A stretch of 64,000 nucleotides of DNA from Phoronis australis (GCA_002633005.1 NMRA01000148.1:558001-622000), one strand, 5' to 3'. Counted from the stretch's first letter, positions 1 to 42,191 are shown. The notes: generated by a model from the letters alone, not told the origin. Translations and numbers: made by a program.

Positions 1-165
1 CTGTGTGATTTGTGTTTTGTGCAACTTAAGCTTGACATGTGCATACACTTTCAGTGAGGTGTTCAAAATAAATTAAATTAAATACTGGCCTCTGCTATGT
101 CCATTCATGCATTTGGAGCTCTACCCTGTTGACGTGATTTGATGTGATTTGCTACTTGTTTTCAG

Positions 166-9900: not shown

Positions 9901-12900
9901 GGAATTCTCTGCTTGTTGACATGTACAAAACCAATTGGTTTGAGTGAATTATATGCACATACAATCCTAAACAAAATCTAGATCTTCGAAATACATTATT
10001 CTTTGTTGACAACAAAACTAATACAAAAAGTGCACTAAAAGCACTGGAATGACAAACCTTGGAACCAGGGTCCAATCTCTGAATTCAAATTCAACCGAGA
10101 CTCAGACTCAAAATTCAATCATATTGCATGATTTGAGTACAAATTTTTAAAGTTTACTAAAAACCTGTTGTGCATTTGGCCAATTTTCTTAAAGCATAGA
10201 GATTAGAGCCTGCAGATTAATCCCTGACCACACTGGGTTTTATTTCATCAATTAGAATGCAACAAACTCAACATTGCAAACACCTTGTCAGATTTCAACC
10301 CCACCATTTGAATGAAGGACAAAAACTAACATAATTGGTTTTGGTCTGCACACAACTCATTTTGAAACTAGTGCCTCATTGTTTAAACAATACAAAAGGA
10401 TCCCAACCCATTTCAGCTGGTGACATGTGGTACTGTGGCATGTGATACTGAGGCATGTGATACTGAGGCATGTGATACTGTGGCATGTGATACTGAGGCA
10501 TCAGATACAGTGGCATGTGATACTGAGGCATGTGATACTGAGGCATGAGATACTGTGGCATGTGATACTGAGGCAGTGACACAGAGGCATGTGATACTGA
10601 GGCAGTGATACTGTGGCATTTGATACCGAGGCATTTGATATCGAGGCATGTGATACCGAGGCATGTGATACCCAGGCATGTGCTGCTGTGGCATGTGATA
10701 CTGAGGCAATGATACTGTGGCATGTGATACTGATGCAAATGATACTGTAGCATGTGATGCTGAGGCATGATATACTGTGGCATGTGATACTGAGGTAGTG
10801 ATACTGAGGCATGTGATACTGTGGCATGTGATACTGTGGCATACGATACTGTGGTATGTGATACAGAGGAATGTGATACTGTGGCCTGTGATATTGAGGC
10901 AGGTGATACTGAGGCAGTGATACTGTGGCATGTGACACTGTGCCATGTGATACTGTGGCATGTGAGATTGTGGCATGTGATACTGAGGAATGTGATACTG
11001 TGGCATATGATACTATGGCATGTGATACTGAGGCAGTGATAATGAGGCATGTGATACTGTGACATGTGATACTGAGGCATGTGATACTGTGGCATGTGAT
11101 ACTGTGGCATTTGATACTGTGGCATGTGATACTGGGGAAACATAAGGATATCGAACTATGTTAGGTCCTGTCAAGTGACTTCTTCTTTTTGAAAATATGG
11201 AAAAGTAGAAAAAAATACTGCAACACCCATCAATTTTGATTCAAAAAATGCACAACTGAACCAATCACCCCCATTTTCTTTGGCCAGCCAAAGTATACAC
11301 TTATCTATGAAGCAACGTACAATTCATCTTTTTCTGTAGTGCAGTTAATGCGGGCCTTTATCTTCAAATCCTTTTCTATGTAGGCCGCAGTGCCCTGTCT
11401 CCAGTTACCCAGATACAACTTGCCTGGAATTATTTCTGTTGGGTAGGTTTTTAATTCATCCAGTTCCTTTAAATGAGAAAACACATCTGATGGTAAAAAT
11501 AGTAGTGGCACTGTAATGATTATGGCAATGGTTAATAATAGTATTATACTGACAATATGATACAGTATGGAGAAAATAAAAATAATAGCAGCAATGAAAA
11601 AAACAGAAAAAGCATTAAAGTGAAACTTGCACATTAACTCCTTATCTCTGCGGTTGCTGGGCCAAATTAGTTAGAAACAGAACACATGGCGATGATGTGA
11701 ATATGGGGTAGGTTGAAAATTGCCAAATGTTTTTATGAATGAGTTTGTGGCAAAAATGATCTGCTGCAAATCACTAAACCGTGTTCAGTAAGTATTATGA
11801 TGTGGTGCCCAGGAATAACACTGCATGATGCCGGCTACGAGAGCCCGCGAAGTACATCATTAGTAATGAAGATTTTTTTTGTTTTCCTCATTTACAAGTT
11901 GTCAGTGAATACACAACTGCACTTTGTTTAGTATAGATTGTGTTGAAATAGGATTGCCATTCAGTTCCTGCTATCATTAGCACAGTAATCTTTAAGTACC
12001 AAAATCGACCTTTTTTCGTTTTTCAAAGACTTCTAGTTTCATAATATTGCCTGGAAGTACCTATGGTACAGAGCTGGAAAAGCATATATTAAGCCTTACA
12101 TATCTTTTACAGAGAATGATAAAACAAAATTTCACTTGTCTGCCATACTGCACCATAAATTGGTGAGATTTCATTGTAGTACAAATGTGCGGACCGAAGT
12201 AAGATATTTCATGGCAAGTATCAAATTAAAAGCAACTTTTACCCTAGGCATAAACATGATCTTCTGTGTTCGTAGAAACGGATAAAGTGCGGAGAAGTCT
12301 TCGTAACCACCCTTTAAGATCCTCACTGGATTCCTACTTCCTAACTCAGACATTACCCTGGCACAGTGGAAAGCAGGCCCTGGAATTAAGTCATCATCAA
12401 CAGTCATTTTAAATATAGTAAACAATAAACAAATAATTATAGCAGACATAATACAGCACATGGGACTCATTATTAAATCCTACTGAATGTGTCACAATGA
12501 AGATTCTGTTGTCGATATGTTGAAAACTATAGAATTACCCAATTAGGGACAGTGGAAAATATGGCAAAAATTCCTCAAATTAATAAAAACACATTATGGT
12601 GGACAGATGAAATTTCAAATTAGTTGAATTCCTCAACAAAAATCTGTTTTCAGGAAAATTCACTTTGCTTTTAGCATGGCTTGTATGGTGTAGCTATAAC
12701 AAACAACATTTGCTACAGTCTTGAGTGTGAAAGCCTCAGTCTGAAAAACAGTAACATGGAGATTTTAGCAATTATTTTTGTTGTAAACTGAAGAATTTTT
12801 ACTATGATGATTTTATACAAGGTCAGAATCAGTAACAAATTTTAGAAATATGCAATATAGCATTCCCGAATTCAAGAATTACAAGAAAAACTACAAATTT

Positions 12901-15448
12901 ACCCTTGTCCAAAATTTTGAACTTAATTGTAGATCGGTTACAAATTTTTCAATTTTGTGGTCAATAATCAACTTCTGCAAGACTTCCAAACTACAACTGT
13001 CAACATTCAACGCAAAATTCATGAGGAAATGAACATGTCATATGCCTTTGATTAACATCTCCTTCTCACGTTGCAGTGCTGAAAACTAAACCTTTCTGCT
13101 AAATGTCAGTAGAGATTCAACAGTATTAAGAAACAAAATCTTAATCAAGGAGTGGTAAAGCTGAGTAGCTTACAACAAAAACATGGACATTAACTGCAAA
13201 AAAATCCATTGATTGACTGCCTGCACAAACACAGTGATAATGGTAATTACCAGTTTCTTCCAAGCTACATGTATTTCCATCGTATACAATAACATTCTGT
13301 TTGCACTCCAGCTCAGCATCATAAGGTATCATGAATTCTCCATTTTCATTCTGAAATCCATAATTAATACCACTAATAACATGGAAAACTCAAAGTGCCT
13401 TCTAAGCAAAATACACAGAAAGTAAATAAACCACCCACATGGAAGGATTAGTGGAATTGGGCAAGGGAAAGGGGTGGACTTGGTGGTGAAATTTTTCTCC
13501 ATACATGACTGCATACAAAATTAGCAATAAGAATCCAAAATCCGCACGATAGCATATTGTTCTATGGCGGTCATAAGGCAAGACTGCACGAGAATTAAGG
13601 CAATCAAAACATAATATTATCAACAAGCTTTTAGTATTTCCAATGAAACACATACCCTTTTATTTATTTGTTGAGACATTCATAACACTTTCAAAGGTCA
13701 AGGTCATTTTCAATTCACCACCTCACCTTAGGGGCCTTTTTAGCAGTGACAACATGACTTTCTCCATACTCGTGTTTTAACCTTGAATCTGAAAACAAAA
13801 GATAGTTTGACAATGACAAAACCAAACAGACAACCAGTATCTTAGGTCGTGTGGGATTCTCACAGTTCAGCGTAGTAATTAGGCAGGCTAACATAGGAGA
13901 CAAAAGTGGTCCAAACACAGCAAGCCCAGTCTATAGACTGCCATGCAGAGCTTGAGAAAGTTTAACTTTAAAAATTACAGTCATAGCAGGGTAATTGACA
14001 TTGAAAATTCCCAATTCAGAAGTTGTCAAAACCTTTCTCACAAACATACTGAAGGCTTAAGACAGCTCCTAAAAAAGTCACAAAGTTTTATGCATGATAA
14101 AAATCTAATAGGGGATGACAGAGGACTTGTCATAATTAACCCATGAAAAAGCTTCATGGCGGCTTTTTTCATGTTTAAAGAAATATGACAGAATTTTCTC
14201 CTTCCCCTGGTTGCCTACAGGGTCATGAGAAGAAAAAGAAAAAAATATTGAAAATCTGACCAACAAAATGAATGGATTGTGTTGCGAAAACAAATCAACA
14301 GAAAGTGCTTTTTCATACATAAATTCTCACAAATTGGGTCTCTTTTCATTATACTAACCCATGTGTTATTTTTGGGCTAACTCTTTAAAAGGTTGTGTGT
14401 CCTAATTTACCAGTGCCACACCCTCATCAAAAATAGACTGACAACTCATTACATGATGAACATCAAGAGATAAAATCAAAGAGATACTGAGGCTTGGTCT
14501 AACCATACATACTCTACTAAAGTCTAAGATCTAACCAGGTGCACAAATCTGGACACCCAGTCCAAGAATTAGTCCTGAAATTATTTTTATTTTAAAGCCA
14601 CAATAAACTTGCCTTCTGTCACAAAAACTAAATTTTGAGTACTTAATATCCTTACCTAACTGGTCTCAAATTACTCCATAGTCAAAACAGGTGTGATTCT
14701 TGGGCTTGGAAAGAACTTACAACTCGTATTTAGATTGAGATCAGGCACTAAGTGTGAATTTATCGGGCAATCGAGCATGGTGGTCAGTCTTTAGCCAGCT
14801 AGCTAGCTGTATGAAGACTATTGTCAAATTAGTACAGTTTTGCACCAACGCAAGGTAGTCTTAAAAATCAACAAACTGCAATACAAAACTTACTTTTCAT
14901 CTGCAGTAAGTCGCAAGTTGACACCAAATTTATAAAAGTAAGTAGAATAAACCAAAATTCAGTTTCTTTGACAGAATGGATGTTGCGACAGTTTTAAATG
15001 TCTTAAAATTACCAGTCAGTTTACAACTGTCGTGAATTTTCAGTTCCAGGTGTGACGAACCATTGTATTCAACTTCTCTAAATTGTTTACACTGGCGGAT
15101 CTAGGATATCATAAGGGGTAGAGGCACATAGTGCCAAATGGCGGAAAATTTTGTTTTTGCCTCTGAAAACATTTCTGATTGCTGAAGTACAATCAAATGC
15201 TAATTTAATATGGTTAATTAACATACTCAATATTTCCTCATGTGGAAATTACCTCTTGGATGAACAGTTTGAACGGTCGACTCACACGACGGAGGCCTGT
15301 CCCCGCCGTCATGTGCCTGATAATCCTGTTTTTAACAAAACTTACCCAGCAATAGCAAGAAGTTAGGATCGCTTAGTTTAGGATAGGTTCCACCTTGATT
15401 AAGTAAATTGTACAAATCTGTAGGTTCTATCAGAGATATTCCTGCCAT
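6952..15448 (-). CDS. STYXL1: Serine/threonine/tyrosine-interacting-like protein 1 (MK-STYX pseudophosphatase), 8 coding exons, 293 aa
   Basis: Exons 15346-15448, 13727-13788, 13251-13350, 12243-12379, 11321-11466, 9220-9308, 7530-7642 and 6952-7083 total 882 nt with consistent phases. The N-terminus MAGISLIEPTDLYNLLNQ...DPNFLLLLDSR..EYGESHVVTA is a rhodanese/CH2 domain (includes GGYEDFSALYPFLRTQK). It is followed by a DUSP domain with the inactive signature VLVFSSLGISR and RPNRGFIKQL. Confidence 0.95.
10422..11133. repeat. Minisatellite with a 15-bp unit GGCATGTGATACTG(T/A) and shorter variants, in STYXL1 intron 5
   Basis: About 700 bp of tandem tgtggcatgtgatac / tgaggcatgtgatac units read directly from the sequence. 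Confidence 0.95.
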
Positions 15449-16261
15449 TTCACTGAAACACAATCTCTTGAATGGGCCAAGTAAGCATGCCAGCTACAAA
15501 CAGGTGCTTTCTTGGCACACTATTTCAAATTATAAACATTGAACCGAATAGCACCGGACGTAAACAAAAGTAGTTACGCTGCAAAATATAATTTAAGCGT
15601 GTAATTAAAACGTATGCATACTAAACAGATGCAGTACTGTTAATCAACTACTCCAAATACGACTTGGTAAGTACACATATGCAAAATGTCGCGTACAACT
15701 GTGCAATTTCTGAATTAATGACTTCGAAAGTAGTTCTTACGTCGTCAAGAACATTTGAGTCCTCCGTTGGTAATCGGGTGTCAACGGAAAACTTCGGTAA
15801 GAAACGTATGGTTGACAAAAGTTTGCAAATTCAAAAGCTCTACATGGGCTTTTTGTGGCTCTGCAATCTTCAAAATCTTAGTCCGTACATCCAAGACTAA
15901 CATCATTTTTCTACGAGATATGGTCCCAACCAATTTAAATAAAACGTGACCATGAAAATTAACTTTTTTTCTTGATGCACTTCGCTTTTTGACCATATCT
16001 TCCAACTTTATGCAAGTGGTCTTTGGTGGTGCCATGAGACACGAAATAACTTACTCGTGAGGAGTATTTTGTTAAAACTGTGCACAGTTTTAGTATTTCA
16101 TGACAATAAATAATGTCTAAGCAGCTCAAAACAACCATTATGTGTGTAAATTTCGTCTTCTTATTAATTTTAAAGAACAACAGTTAAACGATTTTTGCAA
16201 TATTGACTTTAAAGTTTTACCATAATGTTACACCGACTAAAGTGGGTTCATTTTTACAAAC
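15449..16261. promoter_or_regulatory. Probable bidirectional promoter region between STYXL1 and MVD
   Basis: Divergent start codons lie at 15448 (-) and 16262 (+), with 813 bp between them. Transcription start sites cannot be read from the sequence. Confidence 0.55.
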
Positions 16262-19200
16262 ATGGCTGATAAACAGACGACATTTTCCGCACCGGTGAAA
16301 AACAGCTTGTTTTCTGTTACATGCTGTGCCCCTGTGAACATTGCTGTGATAAAGTATTGTGAGTTTTCTACAATATAGCTTCATGTATGCGTTTAATTGT
16401 ATTTTCCAGGAATAAGTTTCAATTTCTTTCTTGTTGAACACCTGTTCTGGAAAAATCCACATGCTGACGGCGGGTATCGAACACGAGAGTTCAAACCGTT
16501 CGGTCAAGAGGCAATTGCCACTTGGCAAGAGATTTAGGGGTGCTCTATATGATGGTATGGCATAATAAGAACTAGAAATTCACAACATTTGTCGATCATG
16601 TGGAGCACCTGCTTTTTGAGGAGGAGGGGGTGTAGTATACTGGGGAACCCAATGTTCGTCCGCCTAAGCATAAAACCGACTTGCTGTTGTACTCACCGAA
16701 TTATTCCACTTCAAAGTTAAGATCTGAATAGGATTCAATTTAACTCTCACAGATATACCGCATTCATCGATTCGGAAGTTTTCTTTAATTTGTGCCGAGT
16801 TATTTCAAATGTGCACTGCCTTCGGCAGCCATTTTATTGTGAAACCTAAGTTCGTCATATGCTGCCCCCTTTTGTAAAAACTGAGAAACATGCAGAAAAA
16901 GGCCAACGAAGTAATGAAAATTGCAACAGCCTGTTTTTATTGACATAAACTCGATTTGAAGCTTTGATGTTGAGCTCTGCACTGTGGTTTCCAATAAAAG
17001 CCAATTGGTCAACATTTCAATGCAGTTTAATGGTGAACGTGAGGCAAAAATGTTAAGAACCCAGCGTATCGCATTTGTCTGCGGATTTTTCCTTTGGCCT
17101 TCTAGATCCTACTAGTGCCTGGGAAAAACAGATACATTGCATAAACAAACCCTGGATCATGTTTTGTGTCCCGTCGGAAGAAAATTTAAATTCGAAAACA
17201 TCTTCTGAAAACGCACAAAAAAGTGTATTAGTAAAATCTACTGATTTTTAAGTGGTTTTAAAAAACAATCGGTAAACTCACCGATTTTTGTCTCATTACT
17301 TTGATACGTGTCTCTTCCGATAAGTTAGTACCTAACGTGCAGACGAGAACTCCAAATTGGAACGCTAAGTCCCGCGTGGTTGCGCTGCACGCGAAACAAG
17401 ATGGCGGACGAACTTTGGAGCCTGACGAAAATAGGTAACCGGACGATACCGTCAGAGGCCCTAAAGTCGTGAGTGCCCTAAAGTGGTGAACGATCTTATT
17501 TCCTCTTCTGCGCGGTCCTGCGACATCTGGCGTTGAAGTTTCCAGCGTTCATCTGCTTACGAACGTCAAACGAATACCCGGACGTGTTCGTATTCACAAT
17601 ATGATAACAAACAGTGAGTGAGTGGCTTCTTTTTTCAAATGTATCTTTAAAACGGCATATTTCACTAATCCACTTTTTTGAGCATTTTCGGGATATTTTT
17701 TGGAAAATATTCATTCTTCAGATTTATTCAAACACGAGCTCCAGAGGTAGCTTGAACAATGTATCAAAATGTCCCAGGGTCGATAAAGTTTTGTAAGGCC
17801 AAAGCAATAAAATACAGAGAGATAATTGATGCTGGGTCCTTAGCGTTTTACGTGAACAACCTCATTGAAAACGTCTGTGCACATCAAAGTTGAGTGCACA
17901 ACATATAACAATTTATTTCAATTGCAACTGAATTAATAAAAAATGTAATGCATTTTTATGTCATCTAGAGTAACTGTACGCACTGTAGTTGACTTGTGAG
18001 GTCTTACTTCGTGTATTTCCGTCTAACCGAAACGGTCACGACTTTAGGGCCTCATTCAAAATGGCCGCCGATATCAGCGACCGTTTCAAAACTCGGCTTA
18101 CGGAGACAAACAAGGATTAAGATTGTCAAAACACGTATATTTGTGAAGGCTGATATATGTCCATGACATCACATGAGCAGTTGCTAACGGACATTGAGTA
18201 GTATGACAATCGGCACTTAGTATGCTTATATTCACGACTTTAGGTCACCGGTGTATAATAGCCGAGATTACCCGACCCGGGGATCGAACCCGCGACCCCC
18301 ATAAAACCGGCAAGCGTGCTAACCATTCAGCTAATAGGCAATTGCCCGTTAGCGAGTAGCTAACAGAGGCTCATATAATTCACCGGAAGCACATCTACAA
18401 CATTCCCCCCTTTCCTACGGAACGGGCACGCGACAGGAAGGTGAACACCAGGATGTCTCGCATACAGGTCATCAACGTCTCTTGGTACCTTTACCACCAC
18501 AACACAGGTGAGCACAAGGTCGTCTCTCATACAGGTCCTTGACTCCTGGAACCTTCTACGCGCGCCGTCCCGAGGTCCGTGGGTACTAGTTGGCAGTGCT
18601 TCATCGGTAGATCATCCGTTTGCCGACTACGCCATTTGTAGTAATAGCCGAGATTACCCGACCCGGGGATCGAACCCGCGACCCCCATAAAACCGGCAAG
18701 CGTGCTAACCATTCAGCTAATAGGCAATTGCCCGTTCGCGAGTAGCTAACAGAGGCTCATATAATTCACCGGAAGCACATCTACAACAGGGGCGAGTAAC
18801 TCCATCTCTGGCCTGCATTTCGAGTTTTGTGTGTGTCCCTCTTGACTTGTGGGCTCCGACCATTGTTGGGAGTCAGTGTGGAAAATCCACATGCCGACAG
18901 CGGGTATCAAACATGTGCCACCAGTGTTCAAGTTGAGCATCCCGCTCCAAACCATTCGGCCAAGAAGAAACTGCCCCCGGCCCCATGGCTAGTGATTTAG
19001 AGAGGCCATCCAATGGTATTGAAAATTCACTGCATGATGAACACCAGCCGGAATGATACATTGCACTGGTTAGATATAGCTGCCCCTGATTTAGAGAACC
19101 AGTTTCATCCAATTTTACAAATGTCTCACAGTTTCAACTTTAGACAAAAGAAAGTGGTTTCCAAGATCAGATAACAACCTAGCCTATTGTGAAGTGTTCT

Positions 19201-22200
19201 TGCGATCTCCTGTAAGAGCCAGCTCACTAGTCATGAACCAATTATCATGTTATCATGTCCCTTAGTCAACAAAACTGAAACAATGATGAATGTTTATCAC
19301 TTTTCTTCAGACAAAAACCCTAATCCCAAAAATGAAAAGAAATACATTAGTTGTGTTTTCTGATAAAATATTTATATTGTATGTTTTAGGGGGCAAAAGA
19401 GATGAGAAGTTAATTCTACCAATAAATGGCTCTGTCAGTGCTACACTGTGTGAGAATGAGGTAAGTTGTGTTTTCATTATTTTACTCACTGCATGTATTT
19501 AGCACTCATAAACTTTGACACAAGGTCCGAGCACCAGTGCCTCTATCTGAAAGACATTGTAGTTCATAAGGTCTTTCACACTGGCTCCGGAGCTTTGGTG
19601 ATAGTGAATTTTCGGTCAGTTGGAACACTTAACTTTGGTCTTGGATTGAAGTTAACAGCGAAAGTTTACTCCGGAGACTTACAGAGGTGGATTTAACAAC
19701 GAAGCATCGACGCTTCGCTACAATGGGAAGTTTTAACTTCAATGCCACTGAAGTTATCAGCAGGGGTCGCTGGCTTGCCAACAGGGGTTGGTCACTGGTT
19801 GTTAAAGTTTTGTTCTAATACACCGTATATCATTTTGGCAGTGTTTCAGTGTATTCACCTGTATTCTTCACGTCACCAAAAAATCACTGAATTTAACGCA
19901 AAATGAGTTCCTGCCATACTGATGCCATACCACCTTAGTTCAGATCAGCTGTTGTTCAAGATGGCGACGTTGTCATTTTTGCCAGCGGCAAGATAGTCAA
20001 ACAATATAATAACTCAAATAATGTAATAACAGAGTAAAAAAACATAACGCTAGCGTCTGACTGGTATGTTCATGTATGCAAAGGGTAGTGTAATATTAGC
20101 ACTACCTTGTGTAATTAAAGGGAGCGGACCAGGGAAAGTGATATAGGACATAGGCCACATGAATCATATCTATGGTAATAGCCATTTTTGGATATAATGG
20201 CAGCATGGTGAAATACGTCTTGTTGTTAGATGTCAATAACATAGTCTGTGAACGGCGTTCAGCATAATGTGGATTTAATGCATTTTTTAAAATTCTTTGT
20301 GACCTTCATACAGCTACATTGCCACTGTTATACGGTGAGATAGTCAAATGAGTCACGCAAAACTGTTCAATGTCTCAGTCCATCTGTGAATGGGATGAAA
20401 TTGTGCTTTGTCCTTGTATCAGGAGTTGGGCTCCAACAATGCTTAAGAGTTATATATAGCATATTTCCTATTTCCATTTCTGCTTTCTTTATCAGTGTCC
20501 ACTTTTTATGTTCACTCTCAAATAGCCCTTGATGGAAACGGCATTTTACGGATCCATTTTCTAGTTTTTAATCATTTAATATATATTTACAAATTCAGTT
20601 GCAAGCCAAGACTACTGCAGCTGCCAGCAAAGAGTTCAAAAGCGACAGAATGTGGCTCAACGGAAAGTGAGTACAAATCAACAATATTTTTAACCTTAAT
20701 TGCAAATCTTCCAAGTTCCTCATTCATTAACCCAAATGTCAGGAGTCTTTCTTTTAGCTTAAATGTTTGTTTAGTCTGAGCTAATATAGGTAATTAATAG
20801 CTTAATCAACAGTCACATGTTTGATAAGTTTCTTTACTTATTATTTAATGCTACTTTGGTTATAGGGAACAAAACATGGATAGCGAAAGACTACAGAATG
20901 TTTTGCGAGAAAGTAAGTCGATGTAAAATCTTTTCATTTGTCCTATGTAAAGTTGACGTATTCTTGCATTATTTTAATGTTCTATGGAATTAGTGAAATT
21001 GCTGTTAGCAAACAATATTCAGCAGCTGATGAAAAAATGGTGACTAAAACCTGAGGGGCTGTGTGCTCATCATGGGTAGGGGCCAGGGTGCCACAGCACA
21101 TTCAACATGCAGACCAACGCAACTTGTGCAACATGGAAAATGGATACCTGAGACAATAGCAATAACGTCTATGGTTGCCACCACTTGTGCATTTCTCCTT
21201 CCTTCCTTTTTACTAGGTCTCCTGACTGAGGTGGTGCCTGGAAGTATCTCAGATATTCTTTCCAAGATGATGTACAATAATTCTCCACTTATTTAGCATG
21301 ACTGCCTCATTTCACACACCCTCATCAAAAATATCAATGCAAATCCCTGTCTTTAATGTAGTAATACACACATCTTTAACTGAGTATGTAGGGTCTGAAC
21401 ATTGTGTATTCACCACTTGCGTAAATAACCCATTTATATGAGATATCTCATACTGAGTGTTTTATGGTTGATGTGGTAAAGTACTCTTAATTACTGTTAA
21501 TTGGATTGCATTAGCAACCTGTACGCTGCATTTTTTTGAATTCACTCATGTAGATTTGGCGATGCGTGGTTACTCAGTTAATTTCACATATCTGGTAACT
21601 ATGAAGTCTATATATTCAGTTTTTTTGGCACATCTCAACTATCATTCAATTTCTGGGAAATATGTGGAGAATTACCATATATGAATGCCAAAATACCCTC
21701 CCGAGGTGATACCTGGTAGGGCACACTACCGAAGTTGTTGGTGTCATGTCCTTACAAACATTTTACGAAAGAACCTCATGTCAAGGTAACAAAACAAGTA
21801 AAGTATTCTCAGCATTAGGTTTAAGGAAGAGACGGGTTGTTTTAGCTCAAGATTCCCATTTTGGAGACCTAGGCAAACAATTCAGCTTGGCGCATATGGT
21901 GTTTTTTTGTAGTGTATTGCAAAAGCATTCAGATTAAATGACCTGAAATTCTCCCACCATGATGGCTGGGCATAAGTCAAATTTATCATCAGAATAGCCA
22001 GCCAAGAATGAAACAGAATCAATTGGAAAGTTGGTAGGGTGGCTAAGTCATTTTGTAATTAGAATTTTGCCAATCTATTACTTATTACCAGTCATTTTGG
22101 GTAATAACAGAATTAGAAGTCATGACGGGAAATGGTGTTTTGTATAATTATCTTTGGCAAGCAAAGTCCCTCTTCTGGGTCTTTGAAGTGGATGGAAGCA

Positions 22201-25200
22201 ACAGAGTGAATGACAACCTGGTTAATAGCTGAAAATTAATTTCCAGGGGTGGGTTTAGATTTAAATAATGAGTATGTCTGAATGAAGCTGCATGACTAAG
22301 TTAAGTGTTTTTTACATTTCTTGTTATCAGGACATTTGCTTCGTGTTGTAGTATTTCAAAATAATATACATGGACATAAATGAACATCGGTAAAAAAAGC
22401 GTCCTTGTTAAACTGTTATCTTAGGAAAGTTATTTTAACCAAATCCAGCTAACTAGTGAAAATGCAGTCGTTTCAGATATTATTTCTGATTTGCGCACTA
22501 TTCTTTGTGTATTTTAGTCAAACGGCGTGTTAGAAAGAGAAAATCGGGAGACAGCAATGCGTCAGACCTTTTGAACTACCACGTACACATCTGTTCTGAG
22601 AACAACTTCCCCACTGCTGCTGGTCTTGCATCTTCAGCTGCTGGATATGCCTGTCTGGGTACGTCTGGCCTTTTCAAATTGGCTGTGAATGTAATGGACG
22701 CCCAGCTGCTGGCAATGTTCTTTTTAGCTGTGGCATTTGATTTTCCTCTCCTGAGGATGACTTCCTAAGACATTTTTACAAAATGATAATTGTGGATAAT
22801 CCTTGTGTTTCAAGCAGTGGTACAACTTGCAGAGTGGAGAAATGAAAATTGAACAAGCAGGCTGAGATTGCGTCGTGCTGCTGCCATGTTTGGTGTCAAA
22901 TGGACCAAACAAATCGTGATACCGAAGAGTGTCACCAGTTTAGGATGCAATATGGTAGACAAGTGATTTTTTTTCAATTCTTCGTAAAGGATAAAGAGCA
23001 CCTATTTAGTACTTAGGTTCTACACCGTAGCTGTGACTTTTATGAAATTGTGGAGCTATAAATTCTCATGTTATTGTTGTCGAGAAATTTTGCTATATTT
23101 GCTCTTTCTATTTCAGGTAAAAATTGTAAAGTGTATTTATTTGTTCATTTGTATATTTGTTTAATATTTTAGTGTATACCTTGGCAAAGCTCTTCGGGGT
23201 TTCAGGTGACATCACAGAAATTGCCAGGTAAACAATTTTGCATCAATGATAGCAAAGTATTTTAATAGTATTTCGTTCTTGATAAACATACTGCTTATAA
23301 TAGCATTGTCCTTTACCTGGAATCTAATTATCATCATCGTGATCACCACCACCACCAAAAATGCAGCTTTTTGGTTTCAAGTAGTATTTTAAATGTTGGT
23401 AGTTTTTTGTAGTGTTACTGTTTGGAAAGTAACCTCTCACACACACATAGTATTATTAGATGTCGAATGGTATTGGGTAAACTGCTCCATTTACAGAAAT
23501 TATGGTAAATTCTCATAAATTGTGGACAAAAATTGTAGCCAAAGTTGTGCGCTTTTAATTTTTCAAGGTTTTCCAACATCGTTGTGAATGTCAAAATATC
23601 GGCTAGTGATAGCTATCAGAACATGAATGTGAAAAAACATTAATTTGGAGCTACAGATCTTTTGTTGAAAATGAACTCCTATACTTTCTATCTTTCACAG
23701 GCAAGGCTCAGGCAGCGCGTGCCGCAGTTTACACGGAGGGTTTGTGGAGTGGGTGATGGGGGATAAGGAAGATGGCAGTGACTCGCTTGGTCGACAAGTG
23801 GTCGACCACACCCACTGGCCAGAAATGAGGATCCTCATACTTGTTGTAAGTGCACTCTTTGCTAGGTAATAGTCTCTTCCAATGTTTTGCATTTTTAAAA
23901 CCAGATATCTCCAATGACTAATTGACATCAAACTTGTTCTCAAAATTAGATGCCCCCTGTAATTGTCTGTTTCCCTCTCAACTTTGTTTTTGCAATAGCA
24001 GGAGTAGTCGATCTCTCTTCAATTCAGTTAGTTTCAAACAACAGTCGTCTTATATTCAACAATATTTTAAAACTTTGTTTGCTTCTAATTTTTTAAAATG
24101 CTCACTGTTTAACGCCCACCTCCTAGATTTAAGTTCCTTAGAATTACCTATGTCTTCAACTGCAACCAGAAGGAATTTGAGTTCTATGACATCCTATTTG
24201 GTTACCTTTGACACACACAAAAGACATTACCTTATGTTTTATTTGACCATTGCAACCTCCTGGGAGTTGGTAGTTCAGATTGACACCTACCATGACTTCA
24301 CAAAGTTATCAACTTAACGCCTAACCCCTGATTTTTAGCTTCTGGGTTCAAACAGCCTTGGTGTTAACTTGGGACAGTTAGCTGACAATTCAGTAATACT
24401 TAAAGTATATGTAGACCACTTTCTTATGTTAAAACATTAACTTTCTACACAGGTGCATTTGCTGTTCCAAAGCAATGGCATCGCGTCTACAAATTGCCTG
24501 GAATTCCCTTTGGCCGCCTATTACGTTAATGGAGGAGGCAGTGCGGCCTAGTAGGATAAATGTGGGCTTCCTTTACTCAAGGTTGCTACCTTGCTGGTTG
24601 GAGCCCCACAGGGGTACACTGCTAAGCCCTTTAGTCTGGTCTCTAGCTCCTCAGCTCGTTTCTGAGAGGCAGTGTGTCCTGGTGTGATAAGTGTCCACTT
24701 CCTTTACTCATGGTCGTGGGTTCGAGCCCCACTGGGGCACAACTGCTAAACCTTAGCTCCTTAGCTCGTTTTAAATGTATAATTATGGTGCACAAAAATG
24801 GTTCCAGGTGATCAGTGCAATGGGTCCACCTGAGCAGCCTGTGCAAGTCTAGTACAATGTGTACCAGACTGCCTGTGCAAGTCTAATACAATGTGTACCA
24901 GACTGCCTGCGCAAGTCTAATACAATGTGTATCAGACTGCCTGCGATTATTTTGTATATTGCATTGCCGAGTGAAACTAACCTGCCATTACAAGCAACTT
25001 AATGGGCGCGGTGTGAAGCAATAATGACCAAGCCAAGAAAATATTTCTAATCTTGAGTAAAGAACAAAATGAAATCAATTTTACAATAATATGTGCCATA
25101 AATCAACTGTTGTTTTTTGGCAAAAGGCTCGGGTTTCTTATCCCTATATTAACTTTGTCTCACAGGTTAGTGACCAGAAGAAACAGGTGGGCAGTACATC

Positions 25201-28200
25201 AGGTATGCAGACCAGTGTACTGACCAGTCAGCTGCTAGACTACAGGGCCAGGCACGTAGTGCCTGACAGGATTACCAAGATGAACGAGGCCATTCGCGCT
25301 AGGGATTTCACCACATTTGCTGAAATCACCATGAAGGTGAAGAGTTGTATTATTGTGTCTACAGATTACGCTAGTTCTAGTAAACAGTATGATGGTCACA
25401 AGAAATGATATTTTGTCAAAATTTCTGAACGAAAATAAAGATTAAGAAATTTCTTTCAATAACTGACTAGGTTTGAATTGTGGCGATAGCTGGTAAAGTT
25501 AACATTATGTATAGTGAAACAGCTTTTGAAAAATAAAAAAAATAAATTTTGGCAGTTAATTACCGAATTCATTATCAGCGCATAATTATACATATACTAA
25601 AACTCATAGCAATGATGAGTAGAGAATGCTGTATAGTGTTGCCATTGTTGTTGATTTTTTTGTCTTGTACTTTTCGTGTAAGATAAGTTGCTCCAAAATT
25701 TGCAGCAGTTGAAAATGGAGTTAAAGGAATTGGAATTCTTGAAAGTCCTTTAAAAATGAACATGACAATTTTGGAAATAATGTCTTTGAAATCAAGTGAT
25801 ACTTTAATGTAGTAATAACAATGTATTTTGTTTATTGCAAGAACTCCCAGTTATTAAACTGAAAACAGGCTTACAGCAGAGGTTGGTGAAGGTCAAGATA
25901 ATTATGCATTTCAAGGCTTGGAATTTTCCAATTTTGAGAGGATTTTCTCTTTTTGGTTTCAATTTCCTCTTTTGATTTCCAGTTTCCCCTTTTTCATCTT
26001 ATCATCATTATTTTGACTTTATTTATGTAAAAATGTTAATTTCACTTTAATGTTACAACACAAAAAAAGTATTTCTATCACACAAGCCTATTTATTTGTG
26101 GAACAGTATATCACCTGGGAAATTTTCCTCTTTTGTTATTGTTCATTCCAAGCCCTGGCATTTATAGTTGTTCTTGTCTGAATGTGTTTTGTGTTTCTAG
26201 GACAGCAATCAATTGCATGCCACCTGCCTTGACACATATCCACCAGTCTTCTACATGAATGATACTTCTCGGAAGATCATTCAATTCGTTCATGGCTTCA
26301 ATAGTTTCTGCGGAGAAACCAAGGTACATTGTTGTTCTTTTATTGTCAGTGATTCTTTGACGAATGTTTTTTATCTATGATTGTCAGGGGTAATGGTCTA
26401 ACCATTATCAGCTGGGTGACCAGTGTCACTAACCTTACATTGGGTATGACTAATAGAAAAGGCATCACAATTATTTACTGTGAATAGGTTAAATAACACG
26501 GTTCTTAATAATTAGTGGGATAGGTGATTTAAATTTATCCAAGAAATGCTGTACACAGATATGCACTGTGATGGTGTGTACTAGAGGTACAGATTTCAGT
26601 CTTGAGTGCTGGTCACTCAAATATTTACTGACTTGTTGTCGTGTAGGTTGCCTACACATTTGACGCTGGCCCAAATGCCTGTCTGTACCTACTAGAGAAA
26701 GATGTGCCCACTGTCCTGGGGTTGGTGCAGCATTACTTTAAGCCGCCGTCCACCAACGGGGGACAGTTTCTGAGAGGAATGACGAGCGATATACAGCAGC
26801 CAGAGCAGGTACGGTAAAGATGGAAGTCAGCTATTCCACTGACTCTTCTTTAGTACAAAGCCTGTAGAATTTGATAAGTGCACTTTTTATTAGTATGTCA
26901 TTAATTGGGTCATGTGACCATGTCTCTTTTCCAAGAAATGAAAGGTACATGGATACCAAAACAATAGCATCAATAATGACAGTCTCAAAAATGCCATTTC
27001 AGTTTTCTAATTATTGTGATTTCATTTTTGTTTTACACAGCTTTTGAGTTTTTCATGAAAATCATAAAAAGTCCTAATTTTTATTATTTCTTTAGACCAA
27101 GCTCATAAAATTCTACAGTCACAATATGACCTTGAACTTTTATGTGCGACATCTATAGAGAATTTTGCCGCGTGATGCAATAAGTGTTGGATTTTTTTAG
27201 CTGGCAAGCACAAATCCTCACAAAATGCAAGCAAGGTGGTGAGTTAAGTGCTTAGCTTATTACCTTCAGTAGGCAATGAAAAGTAATTATTGCATCACCT
27301 GACAATGATGAATCACTTGTTGGCTCACTGTAACCATATAGTTTACAGGTCAGTGACTTGAGATAAAGTTCACTTGAGGCAGACAGTTGAGCTTGAAACT
27401 CTCCCTCTGCATCAGCCCTAGCGGGAAGTGAAAAAAACAAACACGGTAGTAAGTTACCTTGTATTTTAATCTGTTACAGAACCTTCTCAAAGCCATACCT
27501 CTAGAACAGACTGAAGGTGTCAAGTACATAATTCACACCAAGGTAAACATTGAATCGCCTTTTGAGTGTGATAACAACCAACTGTTGTACACGTACGATG
27601 GTTTAAAGTAACTATAAACTTGCATCTCATCAAAGAAACTAACTTTTGATTTGGATTACGTACCGCTACAAAATTGGTCTTGATCCTCACTCAGGTGAGA
27701 AGTGACTTCTGGGCTTGCAAGGAATTGACTACTAATAAGACAATGAGTGGCCTAAATTGGAAGTGTGTTTTTGTAATGGAAGACGGGTTTATTGCCACTT
27801 GAATGGATTGAAAGTTAAATGTCACTTATATGTGCCGTTTCAGTAATGCGACTACTAGTGTGGAACATCGTGTCACCCATCGTGTCACCCAATGACAACT
27901 GTTGAATCTTTCTATGGTTATACTGAAACTAACAAGTTTGTAGGACAGTGTTATTTTTGGCTTAATAAACTGTTTCATTATTTTGTATTACTTTGAAGTT
28001 GACCATCTTTGTCCTGCTGAAGCTGCCTTAAATATAATTTTAAATCACATATGATAGTTTATGTTCATGGTCGTATTTTCAATCTGGGTTAACTTTGGGT
28101 TCTAGTTTCAGTTTCAAAGTGCCGATGAAACATGAGTGTATGGCATGCATTATGTTTATCAAGTCCAGGTGAAACAATGATTTCCCCCCCAAATACCCAA

Positions 28201-28817
28201 TTCAAAATTGAAGCGTCAAAGACTGCTTTTCTCCTCTCATGAAATTGCCAGATTCTTAAAACTAGTTTTCAATGAAGAGGCAGTAGATGCCCCATCCATG
28301 GCAAACATTTTATAACATTAAGCAAATGTTAAACTACTCGCATCCTTAAAAATCGACAGAAGGTAAATCCTTGGATGTGGTATAAGAACTGAGTAGTTTC
28401 ATTTTGCAGACGTCTAGATGAGACTTTTTGGTGATCAAACAAAGGTTTTATTAAACGAAACCAAGAATAAGCATTGTGAAACTTGCAGAAGTCGAATCTA
28501 ACGGAAACGAGATTTTATTCAACTGAGTAAGGCCAAGTCCGAGTTGTCCAAAGGGCCGAGCGCACGAGTTAGCACAAACGTACAGCAGAACTTTGTCCAA
28601 GTTGAGGGAAAATCCAAGTTGTGCAGTTATCTGACTTGTGCAAGCTTTACTGTAGTAAAACTGCTGGCAGTTCGTGAAAACACCGAATTTCAGAGAAATG
28701 CAGTCGTGCTTAAAAACACTGTTGTAAAGGTTTCTTTATGTTTTGCAGGTAGGTGCTGGTCCGCGTCAGCTTGAGGATTCAGAGAGCTTATTGGGAGACA
28801 ACGGGCTACCAAAGTGA
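16262..28817 (+). CDS. MVD: Diphosphomevalonate decarboxylase, 12 coding exons, 403 aa
   Basis: Exons 16262-16358, 19390-19460, 20599-20666, 20866-20912, 22518-22658, 23173-23227, 23701-23845, 25166-25336, 26201-26323, 26647-26808, 27480-27542 and 28749-28817 total 1212 nt. Motifs include [25 protein letters not shown], the GHMP motif [40 protein letters not shown] and [11 protein letters not shown]. Confidence 0.96.
16443..16560 (-). mobile_element. Degenerate solo LTR of the tRNA-bearing TRIM family
   Basis: The minus strand reads ggcaattgcctcttgaccgaacggtttgaa...gtgttcgatacccgccgtcagcatgtggatttttcc, which aligns by eye with the copies at 18877-19067, 40785-40880 and 41419-41865. Confidence 0.6.
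17447..18251. mobile_element. Non-autonomous DNA transposon-like element with repeated CTAAAGTCGTGA terminal motifs
   Basis: The left end taccgtcagaggccctaaagtcgtgagtgccctaaagtggtgaa has inverted counterparts cacgactttagggcctc (about 18037) and ttcacgactttaggtcacc (about 18231). No coding capacity is visible. Confidence 0.55.
18252..18788 (-). mobile_element. Complete TRIM (miniature LTR retrotransposon) with a tRNA-derived Pol III promoter in each LTR (Helenus-like)
   Basis: Two TG...CA LTRs (18637-18788 and 18252-18402) differ by one substitution and one 1-nt indel. The PBS TGGCGTAGTCGGCA (18634-18621) starts 2 nt after the 5' LTR. The PPT AGGAAAGGGGGGAA (18416-18403) abuts the 3' LTR. The interior is 234 bp and non-coding. 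Each LTR holds A box TAGCTGAATGG and B box GGTTCGATCCC. Confidence 0.92.
18860..19067 (-). mobile_element. Older LTR plus PBS-like remnant of a related tRNA-bearing TRIM
   Basis: The minus strand reads ...cattccgg...cctctctaaatcactagcca...ggcagtttcttcttggccgaatggtttgga...gtttgatacccgctgtcggcatgtggattttccaca, then ctgactcccaacaatgg (PBS-like). Confidence 0.6.
24535..24771 (+). mobile_element. Dimeric tRNA-derived SINE-like head (two diverged tandem units)
   Basis: gaggcagtg...cttcctttactca...ggtt(c/g)gagccccac...ctgctaa...tagctcct(c/t)agctcgttt occurs twice, at about 24535-24662 and 24666-24771. The second copy has B box GGTTCGAGCCC. Confidence 0.65.
24837..24945. repeat. 34-bp tandem repeat, about 3.2 copies
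   Basis: gcctgtgcaagtcta(g/a)tacaatgtgtaccagact starts at 24837, 24871 and 24905, with a partial copy at 24939. Confidence 0.92.
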
Positions 28818-29432
28818 TCTAGTAGTTTGTGAATAATATTCTAGAACACTGAAGTTTTTAACATTACTCTTTACAGTAGGGGAACTGATGCGGAGATTAT
28901 CGCTCAAGCAATCGAGACAAATTGAATATTTATTTTGTGCTTCATGTTGTTGTCAGTCAGAAGTGTTAAAGTCCCATGCAGTGCCATTTATGAAAACAAT
29001 TCCTTTGGTTTATGTTTTGGGGTGGAACCTTTGATTTTTTAACATGATTTAGTATTCCTAATTACATGTAATGAAAACCGTGAATGGAATATAGTAAACT
29101 GATTGCTTACACAGGAAAATTCACCACCGCCAACTAGATTTATTTCACTCTGAAGTTTGCATTTTTGGTTTGACCTAATTAGCACTGCATGGGTGTGTAA
29201 TAATTTTCAATATAACTTCAATCTACTGAAATAAGATGTAATAGTAGATGGCAATGATGTCATGTTTGATGAAAGTTTACTTGCAAAATAACCATAGACG
29301 AATTCTGTTTCATCTTCATCAACTCTGCCCATCTTGCACGACCATATTTAAGATCCGCTCAAGCGTGTCACTTACATGCCTCAATACAATTCAGAGCTGT
29401 ATTTTGGCAAACAAATCGTGAAAAATGCTCCG

Positions 29433-29682
29433 TTACGAGGTCTCAATTTCAAAACTGAAGTCAAGGTCTCCATTTTTTGGCGTGAATGTTACTGAGAACG
29501 TAACTGCACCGTCTTTCATCAACATCCTTGGTCTCTTGAACAGGTGCACACCCTGTTTCGTATACATGTCCCATACAATAGTCTGACCAGGTTTTACTGG
29601 CTGCAATGGTCCTGTGAGGATGGTCTGCTCCTTATCTAAACAGTATTCCATCCACACTGCCACTCCATTACACATGCTGGAG
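29433..29682 (-). CDS. PRMT7: Second copy of the PRMT7 last coding exon (allelic or duplicated)
   Basis: Same exon as 31762-32011 with 3 amino-acid differences ([19 protein letters not shown] versus [19 protein letters not shown]). Acceptor and stop are intact. Confidence 0.75.
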
Positions 29683-30912: not shown

Positions 30913-30996
30913 GTTGGTGCTGGTCCACGTCAGCTTGAGGATTCAGAGAGCTTATTGGGAGACAACGGGCTACCAAAGTCATCTAGCAGTTTATGA
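30913..30996 (+). CDS. MVD: Second copy of the MVD last coding exon, with a 5-aa longer C-terminus
   Basis: ttttgcag|GTT GGT GCT GGT CCA CGT...CCA AAG TCA TCT AGC AGT TTA TGA translates to [27 protein letters not shown]. Confidence 0.75.
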   Translation, partial: VGAGPRQLEDSESLLGDNGLPKSSSSL

Positions 30997-40700: not shown

Positions 40701-42191
40701 CCTTAATCTACAAATTATAGGAAGTGGGGAGATGTGTACCTTTTCATGAATCAGTGAATGGGTACATTTTACCGCCAGAAAATTATCAGGCAATTGACCC
40801 TTGGCTGAACAGTTTGGATGCTCAACTCTCATGTCAGTAGCCCACATTGGACACCCAATGGTGCCATGTAGATTTTTCAATATATTAATCAACAGGGGGT
40901 GTTGTAGAGTGAAAAGTACAGGATAAAAGTAGCTGTATGAAGACTATGTAACTTTGCATCGAGGCTAGACAAAAGCACCTCTTCAGATGTGCTGATGTTG
41001 CAGCCCAAATCGATATGGCATGGGTTGGTGAGCCAAACTGATGCCTGAGCCAAACTGATGCTTGAGTCAAACTTAAGCTACCGTAAGTTCCCAAATTACT
41101 GCCAATGATTTATATGTTTTCTTAACAGTTATCAGAACTGAGATTGACAACAATATGGTGTGGTGCATATTTTCGCAGGACACTTCTCCACGAGATTAAT
41201 CCATACGTGAGCATTCATTGTCATCAATTTTGGGTTCTGATCAATATCAAAAAAATCTATAGACCACTTGCAGTAACTTGGGAACTTACGGTCACTTCAG
41301 TTTGGCGCAGGCATCAGTTTGGCTAACCAACCATGCTAAATTGAAGTGCACCAAATCAGTGTGGCGCAGGGATCAGTTTAGGTAGCCAATACTCAGCTCT
41401 TACAGGTTGGTTTACCGATGTTGTGACATGTGACTTCCGGGTATTACCTACAGCCAGATAAAGCCTCTCTAAGTCGTTTGCCAACCAGCAATTGCCTCTT
41501 AGCTCAACAGTTTAGATGCTCGGCTCTCACACGTGCAACCTGGGTTCATGTCTCGGAGTTAATGACATTTTCTTCATTGGCATTCAACAAGGGTACAGAA
41601 CCCACGACCAGACAGGATGTCAGCACTCCTCTAGGGTCAGTCCAGAGTCACGCTTCATCAACTGCAGAGAAAACCCAGACCGGAGACATGGCCAACCTGG
41701 GGGAAGGGGGGGCAGGTGGCACGCTTGATCTATAGAAGTAAGAGGAGGGTTGTGACACATGACTTCCAGGAGCGACATACAGCCAGATAAAGACTCTCTA
41801 AGTGGCTGGTCAAGCGGCAATTGCCTCTTGGCTGAACGGTTTCGATGCTCGGCTCTCACACCAGTGCTGGAGTCACTGACTACACTACACTCTACACTAC
41901 AGTATATGCTGCAAAAGCAGCAAGGCATTTGAAATGAAGTGTTCCTGAATGCCTCAACAATTTCAATGACTTTTGAATGGCTCTAATCATTAGAGTAAAT
42001 CCTAAACACCTCAGGACTTTTGAAAAGGATATTGAAAATATGATTTCTGATTTGGTAATCACAGAAAATTATGCCAAAAGGCAAAATAACAATCACCTAG
42101 CAATTTCTTGGTGATAATCATAATTCTCATCCTCAATAACCCATTCATATTTGCCTGTTACTGGGCAGACACGTGATGAGAATACACTCAT
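31762..42191 (-). CDS. PRMT7: Protein arginine N-methyltransferase 7, 13 coding exons, 678 aa
   Basis: Exons 42097-42191, 40134-40170, 39007-39156, 38558-38666, 38101-38213, 37362-37594, 36919-37102, 36208-36338, 35390-35588, 34672-34809, 33730-33966, 33048-33208 and 31762-32011 total 2037 nt. Motifs include [33 protein letters not shown], the double-E loop [12 protein letters not shown] and WRDHWMQ. A second degenerate PRMT module follows ([21 protein letters not shown]). Confidence 0.96.
39162..39271. repeat. Perfect 55-bp tandem duplication next to the PRMT7 exon 3 acceptor
   Basis: ggtacaaagaaagcatttcaagcgaggaaacacgtggacttcacatgcatacgag occurs at 39162 and 39217. Confidence 0.92.
40785..40880 (+). 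mobile_element. Degenerate LTR fragment of the tRNA-bearing TRIM family
   Basis: ggcaattgacccttggctgaacagtttggatgctcaact...catgtagatttttc matches the family by eye. Confidence 0.55.
41018..41336. mobile_element. MITE-like element with about 70-85 bp imperfect terminal inverted repeats
   Basis: gcatgggttggtgagccaaactgatgcctg...accgtaagttcccaaattactgc is inverted relative to gcagtaacttgggaacttacggt...caggcatcagtttggctaaccaaccatgc. Confidence 0.8.
41419..41865 (+). mobile_element. Older two-LTR TRIM of the tRNA-bearing family (3' LTR truncated)
   Basis: LTR1 spans 41419-41576 (tgttgtgacatgtgacttccgg...gcaattgcctcttagctcaacag...gggttcatgtc...ttca). A PBS-like tggcattcaacaaggg follows at 41578, then the purine tract agaagtaagaggaggg (41734-41749), then LTR2 from about 41750 (ttgtgacacatgacttcc...ggcaattgcctcttggctgaacgg). 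Confidence 0.75.

What the first reader, a model, noticed from the sequence alone, without database searches (positions are those of the whole stretch)
18252..18788. Young, complete miniature LTR retrotransposon whose LTRs each contain a tRNA-derived Pol III promoter
Seen (minus strand): two 151/152-bp TG...CA direct repeats differing at only two positions. PBS TGGCGTAGTCGGCA lies 2 nt after the 5' LTR and PPT AGGAAAGGGGGGAA touches the 3' LTR. The 234-bp interior has no coding capacity. Each LTR carries a GGCAATTGCC palindrome, A box TAGCTGAATGG (18719-18709), B box GGTTCGATCCC (18676-18666) and a residual T-arm. Known: the PBS is complementary to the 3' end of animal tRNA-Ser (...TGCCGACTACG-CCA). 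TRIMs with small-RNA promoters in the LTR are a rare class (plant Cassandra with 5S; Helenus with tRNA-like LTRs). Inference: a recently active SINE/LTR hybrid, transcribed by Pol III and mobilised in trans by an autonomous Ser-primed LTR element, possibly an uncatalogued family in this lineage. Caveat: no TSD is visible (ccgg versus gggg).
Basis: partly seen in the sequence, partly recalled or inferred. Interest (0 to 1): 0.85.

Follow-up and report, generated by a model that had tools for sequence, protein, structure and literature searches.

The report
Helenus mini-retrotransposon with conserved palindrome hairpin
A real, fairly young, gene-less jumping element with a tRNA-like promoter sequence in both end repeats, a new family of the Helenus kind described in 2024, whose repeats carry a palindromic hairpin also seen by eye in most fish and many clam-type relatives and predicted to pair the two ends of its RNA.

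Summary
A 1,618-bp TA-duplicating insertion (16638-18255) splits the 3' LTR five bases before its end. The last five bases lie at 16631-16635, followed by CCCC, which matches CCCC before the 5' LTR. So the 'missing' 4-bp TSD is present, both LTRs are 152 bp, and they differ at one site. Reads show a high-copy family with sharp LTR ends. TG..CA LTRs, A/B boxes, a tRNA-Ser PBS, a PPT and a 4-bp TSD match animal Helenus (Kojima 2024). This family is not among the published consensus sequences, and the host is a lophotrochozoan unlike the listed species. New point: a palindrome that sits in a hairpin with the A box. By eye it also occurs in 18 of 18 vertebrate, 33 of 51 bivalve and 3 of 3 nemertean Helenus LTRs, with changing sequence but kept symmetry; the paper does not mention it. 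Folding predicts a 26-33-bp duplex between the RNA ends. Pol III transcription, the helper element and current activity are not shown. Verdict: new member of a known kind, with one testable new lead.

The parts
18789..18792 (-). Target-site duplication, 5' copy (CCCC)
   Evidence: junction covered by a 418-nt contig with 0 differences (table 8)
18637..18788 (-). 5' LTR, 152 bp, TG..CA
   Evidence: loose ends with diverse flanks at 18637
18716..18750 (-). Inverted-repeat module in the LTR: arm A (18750-18745), arm B (18739-18734), central palindrome (18732-18723), then the 5' half of the A box, which can pair with arm B
   Evidence: the 3' LTR copy (LTR positions 31-95) folds at -26.3 kcal/mol, z -3.4, 3 of 500 shuffles as good
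18709..18719 (-). tRNA-type A box (TRGCY..YGG as defined in PMC10886601)
18689..18692 (-). Only run of four T on the sense strand of the LTR, in the place of the anticodon loop; candidate leaky Pol III terminator (inferred)
18664..18678 (-). B box (18676-18666) in a 4-bp residual T-arm; begins 43 nt after the A box start
   Evidence: not called a tRNA by ARAGORN or Rfam
18621..18634 (-). Primer-binding site, 14 nt, tRNA-Ser type
   Evidence: equals the first 14 nt of an antisense template for human tRNA-Ser(UGA) in PMC3299991; same PBS behind TACA on Gypsy-order elements
18403..18636 (-). Non-coding interior, 234 bp, with a 32-bp duplication (18439-18470 / 18506-18537, 84%)
   Evidence: fold not better than shuffles (z -0.7)
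18403..18416 (-). Polypurine tract abutting the 3' LTR
18256..18402 (-). 3' LTR, first 147 bp (palindrome 18346-18337, A box 18333-18323, B box 18290-18280)
16638..18255 (.). 1,618-bp high-copy non-coding insertion in the 3' LTR end, TA duplicated, imperfect terminal inverted repeats beginning TAC; likely a non-autonomous DNA transposon, superfamily not established
   Evidence: depth 20,000-130,000 against 45 in the flanks; 3 of 3 ORFs tested have no Pfam hit
16631..16635 (-). Last five bases of the 3' LTR (ending CA), displaced by the insertion
16627..16630 (-). Target-site duplication, 3' copy (CCCC)
41419..41861 (+). Older relative with two LTRs (41419-41576 and 41748 to about 41861, 83% alike), decayed Lys-like PBS, PPT, same LTR head and palindrome; 3' end and TSD not found
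   Evidence: (alignment z 11.7 against shuffles)

Best explanation
A full-length, non-coding miniature LTR retrotransposon (TRIM) of the Helenus kind, with a 4-bp target duplication and a 3' LTR split by a later insertion, that is likely transcribed by RNA polymerase III from the tRNA-like boxes in its 5' LTR and likely copied and integrated by the proteins of a tRNA-Ser-primed Gypsy element. Shown: LTRs, PBS, PPT, TSD, A/B boxes, high copy number with sharp LTR ends, nested insertion. Inferred cycle: Pol III would start at or just before the palindrome, 12-14 nt ahead of the A box. It would read through the single T4 of the 5' LTR in part of the transcripts and stop at the same T4 in the 3' LTR or further on, giving a repeat R of about 40 nt or more. 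tRNA-Ser would prime at the PBS, the PPT would prime the second strand, and a Gypsy integrase would make the 4-bp duplication. Predicted: if the RNA starts at LTR position 58 or earlier, its 5' end pairs with the U3-palindrome part of the 3' LTR over 26-33 bp. That would hold the ends together for the first strand transfer, as CYC5/CYC3 pairing joins the ends of Ty1 RNA; the same palindrome could instead join two RNAs for packaging. LTRs appear to outnumber interiors several-fold, so most copies are likely solo LTRs. The insertion lies in U5 of the 3' LTR, outside the predicted RNA.
For: Anatomy and TSD. Family: in DNA run X1 summed contig depth is 12,000-29,000 over the interior and up to 189,000 over an LTR bin, against 43-55 in the unique flank (a rough hint, not a copy number). 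30-36 contigs run into unrelated flanks at exactly 18402 and 18637 (agreement 0.38-0.39). A 416-nt LTR-interior-LTR contig with 6 differences occurs in a second sample and study (X3), and LTR-PPT and PBS-LTR junction pieces occur in organism B (X6). Helenus criteria and the 4-bp TSD and Gypsy link of animal families: PMC10886601, whole text read. Same PBS two nt behind TACA on 4 distinct RT-bearing elements among 10 metagenome loci, 3 of them with protease-RT order. A-B spacing of 43 nt is that of an intron-less tRNA (recalled). Shared pre-A-box module with published animal Helenus (by eye). End pairing: (29 expected bp; 2 of 60 controls with the LTR segment shuffled alike in both copies reach it). 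Ty1 analogy: passages of PMC4974528.
Against: No Pol III start seen: in 3 RNA runs no cluster of read ends lies at the palindrome; reads come from both strands, are mostly 90-95% alike (other loci), and the unique flank 18820-19060 has next to no cover. These long-RNA libraries could not show a start well. There is no T run behind the B box, unlike many Helenus LTRs; the only T4 lies between the boxes and would cut some transcripts short. No autonomous partner was found in this host (no genome held). The covariation test on the 8 copies in the window is not significant (score 0.143 against 0.154 shuffled, 328 of 500; 79% of cells paired against 31-56% when slid), and the older copies fold little or no better than shuffles (z 0.0, -0.4, -1.9). 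Any hairpin can pair with a second copy of itself, so the end-pairing prediction is not independent of the hairpin, and it vanishes for starts at position 60 or later.
Confidence: 0.8

Rival explanations
1. An ordinary Pol II-driven TRIM whose LTR carries a dead SINE or tRNA fragment as a passenger.
For: No Pol III start seen; T4 between the boxes; an ETS-like motif (recalled) is shared near the LTR start by this family and the older one at 41419. Kojima states that Pol III function of Helenus is not validated.
Against: A and B boxes and their spacing are the best-kept parts across divergent local relatives and across published families; no TATA box or poly(A) signal is evident by eye in the 152-bp LTR.
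Confidence: 0.13
2. The pre-A-box palindrome works as DNA (a dyad protein site or duplicated A-box half site that helps TFIIIB/TFIIIC), or arose several times, and is not an RNA pairing signal inherited from one ancestor.
For: Window-only covariation is not significant; the arms are copies of the A-box half site; 18 of 51 bivalve and 3 of 3 Lingula LTRs lack the module yet spread (by eye).
Against: The centre changes sequence while keeping symmetry even among close fish homologs, which fits a protein site poorly. By eye most imperfect pairs are G-T on the sense strand. The sense strand folds better than the antisense (z -3.4 against -1.5).
Confidence: 0.35
3. Two adjacent SINE copies or a tandem duplication that mimic an LTR element.
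For: Several decayed tRNA-headed repeats with the same palindrome lie nearby.
Against: TG..CA ends, PBS and PPT at the exact junctions, a 4-bp TSD around the whole unit, no tails, sharp ends in many other copies, and the same layout in another sample.
Confidence: 0.02

Closest known systems
Animal Helenus (TRIMp3), Kojima 2024, PMC10886601 (whole main text read; supplement parts 1, 5, 6, 7, 10, 11 of 11 read, whole file searched by motif)
   Same: Under 1 kb, two TG..CA LTRs each with tRNA-like A and B boxes, PBS for a tRNA 3' end, PPT, 4-bp TSD, no coding, no functional tRNA, solo LTRs likely in excess.
   Different: No listed family has this PBS or these motifs (0 hits for the PBS and palindrome); the listed Ser-primed families use other PBS sequences. 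The host is outside the listed species. The only T4 lies between the boxes, not behind the B box.
Helenus-2_MyGa / -2_MoPh / -2_LimFor (mussels) and Helenus-1_BaPl, -4_ArIr, -1_LiLo, LTR2_Lch, LTR-11_DR
   Same: The mussel trio is Ser-primed with long interiors (226-268 bp; here 234) and LTRs of 141-156 bp. All named families show, by eye, the same order: small hairpin, palindrome, 2-3 nt, A box.
   Different: Little linear sequence likeness by eye outside the boxes; a different palindrome centre; no alignment could be run.
Cassandra (plants) and Ajax (nemerteans)
   Same: TRIMs with a Pol III promoter in the LTR; Cassandra RNA is predicted to fold with its two LTRs paired (passages of PMC7215508).
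   Different: 5S-derived rather than tRNA-derived; 5-bp TSD for Ajax; Cassandra is the only one with tested Pol III transcription (per PMC10886601).
Ty1 CYC5/CYC3 cyclisation and PAL sequences
   Same: End-to-end RNA pairing needed for reverse transcription, and palindromes proposed for dimer formation (passages of PMC4974528).
   Different: Autonomous Pol II element; the signals lie outside a tRNA-like unit; here the pairing is only predicted.

Membership tests
Helenus (TRIMp3) | Non-coding TRIM under 1000 bp with two LTRs | tested here: met
   538 bp without the insertion; LTRs 152/152, 1 difference; no long ORF
Helenus (TRIMp3) | [quoted passage not shown] | tested here: met
Helenus (TRIMp3) | PBS complementary to a tRNA 3' end, and PPT | tested here: met
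   14-nt match to a human tRNA-Ser(UGA) antisense template; host tRNAs were not available; PPT
Helenus (animal) | 4-bp TSD | tested here: met
   CCCC at 18789-18792 and 16627-16630; one insertion only, other copies' TSDs not readable
Helenus (TRIMp3) | Interspersed multi-copy family | tested here: met
   depth and loose ends
Helenus (TRIMp3) | Does not encode a functional tRNA | tested here: met
   0 ARAGORN genes, no Rfam tRNA match to E 1, acceptor stem not formed
Helenus (animal) | PBS shared with an autonomous Gypsy of the same host | tested here: inconclusive
   same PBS on Gypsy-order elements of other sources; no host genome held
TRIMp3 | Transcription by RNA polymerase III | not testable with these tools
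   long-RNA reads show family RNA on both strands but no start; untested for all Helenus
A catalogued Helenus family (Data S1) | Sequence identity to a listed consensus | tested here: not met
   motif searches of the whole supplement and reading of all 76 non-insect animal LTRs; Repbase and Dfam themselves not searchable
SINE2 | Single unit with tRNA head and A-rich or simple-repeat tail, no LTR/PBS/PPT | tested here: not met
Retrozyme | Hammerhead ribozyme in the repeats | tested here: not met
   no Rfam match in the element to E 1

The most novel reading that the evidence does not exclude
Most animal Helenus elements of fishes, coelacanth, bivalves, nemerteans and this host form one ancient lineage, defined by an overlooked cis-element: a palindrome at the Pol III start inside a hairpin with the A box, whose sequence changes while its symmetry is kept. 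It pairs the 5' end of the RNA with the 3' LTR (or with a second RNA) and so lets a short Pol III transcript complete LTR reverse transcription. This would replace the published idea of separate origins in each clade and give the first mechanism for how tRNA-promoter TRIMs replicate.
Probability: 0.35. Interest if true: 0.7.

Novelty: new member of a known kind. Interest (0 to 1): 0.5.

Why it matters
The kind is known, so the element alone adds one family and one more host lineage. It matters more as a test case. No Helenus has been shown to use Pol III, and how a Pol III RNA gets the terminal repeat needed for strand transfer is open. This family is abundant, fairly young, and has a single T4 and a sharp predicted switch: ends pair if the start is at LTR position 58 or earlier, not if it is at 60 or later. 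One RACE and one structure-probing experiment would decide that. The shared palindrome can be tested in zebrafish with LTR-11_DR (5,575 LTRs) and bears on whether animal Helenus arose once.

Tried and rejected
No whole genome is held, so copies, TSDs and helpers could not be counted directly. ARAGORN and Rfam found no tRNA or ribozyme. The interior fold is not better than shuffles. A degenerate palindrome-A-box pattern found 0 metagenome contigs. The PBS pattern found 10 loci, none like the element beyond the junction searched for; L005 looks unrelated. Covariation on 8 window copies: not significant. No empty-site allele among the 15 of 60 joints shown; that is no evidence of fixation. No RNA holder on record was listed; X3 is only guessed to be RNA. 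The slight excess of one strand over the interior (8 of 9 bin-by-run values) was not used, since strandedness is unspecified. The small-share marine metagenome X7 holds short pieces and was not used for habitat. The original Cassandra paper was not held; Cassandra facts come from PMC10886601 and passages of PMC7215508. biv-TRIM (passages of PMC6934838) has no canonical PBS and is a different element. The idea that the decayed repeats at 18864-19034 and 16432-16587 are the two LTRs of an older host element stays open: spacing fits (about 115 bp), but no PPT or TSD was seen. The repeats at 24535-24752 do not align to the LTR better than shuffles (z 1.0 and 2.1). Searches for print on the palindrome: 0 hits for palindrom/hairpin/inverted in the Helenus paper (its figures are not held), 0 papers for Helenus+palindrom+retrotransposon, only that paper as a relevant hit for TRIMp3 and LTR-11_DR. 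No alignment with the published consensus sequences was run, so that comparison is by eye. Supplement parts 2-4, 8 and 9 (fungal and most wasp families, Fig. S1) were searched by motif but not read.

Full report
OBSERVATION. On the minus strand the 5' LTR runs 18788-18637, followed by two nt, a 14-nt PBS (18634-18621), the rest of a 234-bp interior, a PPT (18416-18403) and the 3' LTR from 18402. No tRNA gene is called in the window and Rfam gives no match in the element to E 1.

THE 3' END AND THE TSD. Reads laid on 17600-19400 showed that the right flank is itself a high-copy repeat, with reads leaving it at 18257. If that repeat had inserted at the TA seven bases before the LTR end, the last five LTR bases and a copy of the left flank should lie at its far side. 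They do: the predicted 11-mer occurs once in the window, at 16637 (expected 0.017). So the 3' LTR is 18402-18256 plus 16635-16631, the insertion is 18255-16638 (1,618 bp, TA duplicated), and CCCC flanks the whole unit. Both LTRs are 152 bp and differ at one site. A contig with 1 difference covers 16300-16660 and one with 0 differences covers 18762-19179, so both junctions exist in the reads of organism A.

A FAMILY, NOT A SINGLE LOCUS. In DNA run X1 summed contig depth is 43-55 in unique flanks, 12,000-29,000 over the interior and up to 189,000 in an LTR bin. The tool warns that this is no copy number; I take it only as a hint of hundreds of interiors and several times more LTRs. 30-36 contigs leave into unrelated flanks at exactly 18402 and 18637. 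A second sample holds a 416-nt LTR-interior-LTR contig with 6 differences, and organism B holds junction pieces with 7 and 13 differences.

AGE. One change in 152 bp says young. Yet this copy differs from nearly all depth at 3 interior sites and 1 LTR site, and it has since received an insertion that differs from its own family's majority at 23 or more listed sites (tables cut; some may be subfamily differences). No empty allele appeared among the 15 of 60 joints shown. 'Recently active family' is fair; 'active now' is not shown.

PRIMER AND HELPER. The PBS equals the first 14 nt of an antisense template for human tRNA-Ser(UGA) (passage of PMC3299991); host tRNAs were not available. A scan for this PBS behind TACA gave 10 metagenome loci, which collapse to 6 distinct sequences by their flanks. 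Of 8 ORFs scanned from 5 loci, four elements carry RT, three with protease before RT and no integrase between them, which is the Gypsy order; L009 gave only a zinc knuckle. None is like the element beyond the junction. This shows that the PBS is in use by Gypsy-like elements, not which one helps here.

HOST. A neighbouring PRMT7 gene is at best 56% identical to Lingula among 121 proteins. In a quick IQ-TREE tree of 50 rows (49 chosen from the 121; SH-aLRT only, careful search unfinished) it falls outside molluscs (99), the main annelid clade (99), the two nemerteans (97), deuterostomes and arthropods, in an unresolved group with Lingula, nemerteans, Owenia and Priapulus. I infer a lophotrochozoan that is not among Kojima's listed species; a phoronid or non-lingulid brachiopod is a guess.

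COMPARISON WITH WHAT IS KNOWN. Kojima 2024 (PMC10886601; whole main text read) defines Helenus as TRIMs with tRNA-like LTRs. Animal families have 4-bp TSDs and PBSs shared with Gypsy, and Pol III function is stated to be unvalidated. Every structural criterion that I could test is met. The family is not in Data S1: 0 hits for the PBS, palindrome, LTR start and interior motifs (five hits for a generic B-box motif and five for the 8-nt LTR start are in other families), and no match among the 76 non-insect animal LTRs read. Repbase and Dfam could not be searched. Earlier notes of this scan report Helenus-like elements in at least 13 other genomes (unchecked), none by place or sequence for this one.

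THE PALINDROME MODULE. Here the 10-bp palindrome ends 3 nt before the A box. It is the centre of a longer hairpin in which an upstream inverted copy of the A-box half site pairs with the A box itself; a third arm lies further upstream. The 3' LTR segment folds at z -3.4 (3 of 500 shuffles), its antisense at -1.5, and the 5' LTR, whose one change breaks an arm, at -1.9. Reading Data S1 by eye, a palindrome (arms of 4 bp or more, G-T allowed, centre 0-1 nt; one case with 3 nt) lies 2-3 nt before the A box in 18 of 18 vertebrate, 33 of 51 bivalve and 3 of 3 nemertean LTRs, and in 0 of 3 Lingula, 0 of 1 ctenophore and 0 of 11 wasp LTRs seen. Most of those without it keep a tRNA acceptor strand there. 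The centre differs between families, also among close fish homologs, while symmetry stays. The paper's text has no word on it (figures not held), nor did searches find it noted elsewhere. Against: this tally is by eye and not a statistical test. On the 8 copies in this window covariation is not significant (328 of 500 shuffles reach it), and older copies fold little or no better than shuffles.

MECHANISM. Inferred: Pol III starts at or just before the palindrome (12-14 nt ahead of the A box, a recalled typical distance). The only T4 of the sense strand lies between the boxes, so full-length RNA needs read-through in the 5' LTR and could end at the same T4 in the 3' LTR. Folding that RNA predicts a 26-33-bp duplex between its 5' end and the 3' LTR for starts at LTR positions 48-58, and a local 3' hairpin instead for starts at 60 or later; 2 of 60 controls reach the 29 bp seen for start 56. 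End pairing is required for Ty1 reverse transcription and palindromes are proposed to join Ty1 dimers (passages of PMC4974528), and Cassandra RNA is predicted to pair its LTRs (passages of PMC7215508). I therefore favour end pairing for strand transfer, with dimer formation and a DNA-level role as rivals. Three RNA runs show family RNA on both strands, mostly 90-95% alike, with no start at the palindrome and next to no cover of the unique flank; such libraries cannot settle the question.

VERDICT. Real element, corrected boundaries, TSD recovered; a new family of animal Helenus in a host lineage that seems unlisted. The kind is known and turns up often, so interest is moderate (0.5). The conserved palindrome hairpin is the lead worth following: 0.35 that it marks one ancient lineage and an RNA pairing step, worth 0.7 if true.

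Noticed in passing
window 16638-18255: High-copy 1.6-kb non-coding insertion with TA duplication. It looks like two related halves of about 800 bp in inverted orientation (17047-17849 is a 60% palindrome), each bounded by its own subterminal motif, with depth peaks at 16603-16800 and 17310-17511. Also present in organism B. Superfamily unknown.
   Followed up: partly
window 41419-41861 (+): Second, older two-LTR element with the same LTR head and palindrome but a Lys-like PBS: the lineage appears to have diversified and changed primer in this host.
   Followed up: partly
window 16432-16587 (-), 18864-19034 (-), 15224-15300 (+), 40772-40860 (+): Further decayed tRNA-headed repeats with the palindrome; the first two flank the young element and may be the LTRs of an older element that it landed in.
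   Followed up: partly
window 19064-19111: A 48-bp piece of another high-copy repeat with sharp ends.
   Followed up: no
window 18775-18769 (-) and 41433-41440 (+): An ETS-like motif (label recalled) near the LTR start is kept between the young and the older family.
   Followed up: no
window 28103-32609: Tandem duplication of about 2.2 kb (92-97%) that repeats the last matched exon of the PRMT7 gene (29445-29696 and 31774-32025); real or an assembly artefact.
   Followed up: no
window 148-2900, 22490-26817, 29445-42212: Host genes: a protein kinase (nemo-like by recall), diphosphomevalonate decarboxylase and PRMT7. The element lies upstream of the first decarboxylase exon that I identified.
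   Followed up: partly
window 24535-24752 (+): Two decayed tRNA-headed repeats in tandem (75% alike), of another family.
   Followed up: no
window 10424-11134, 60781-61471, 63386-63499: 15-bp minisatellite (48 copies), a 346-bp tandem duplication (98%) and a 22-bp perfect array.
   Followed up: no
L001, L004, L006, L007: Four distinct Gypsy-like elements with the same tRNA-Ser PBS, two with PNMA-like gag; none from this host as far as known.
   Followed up: partly
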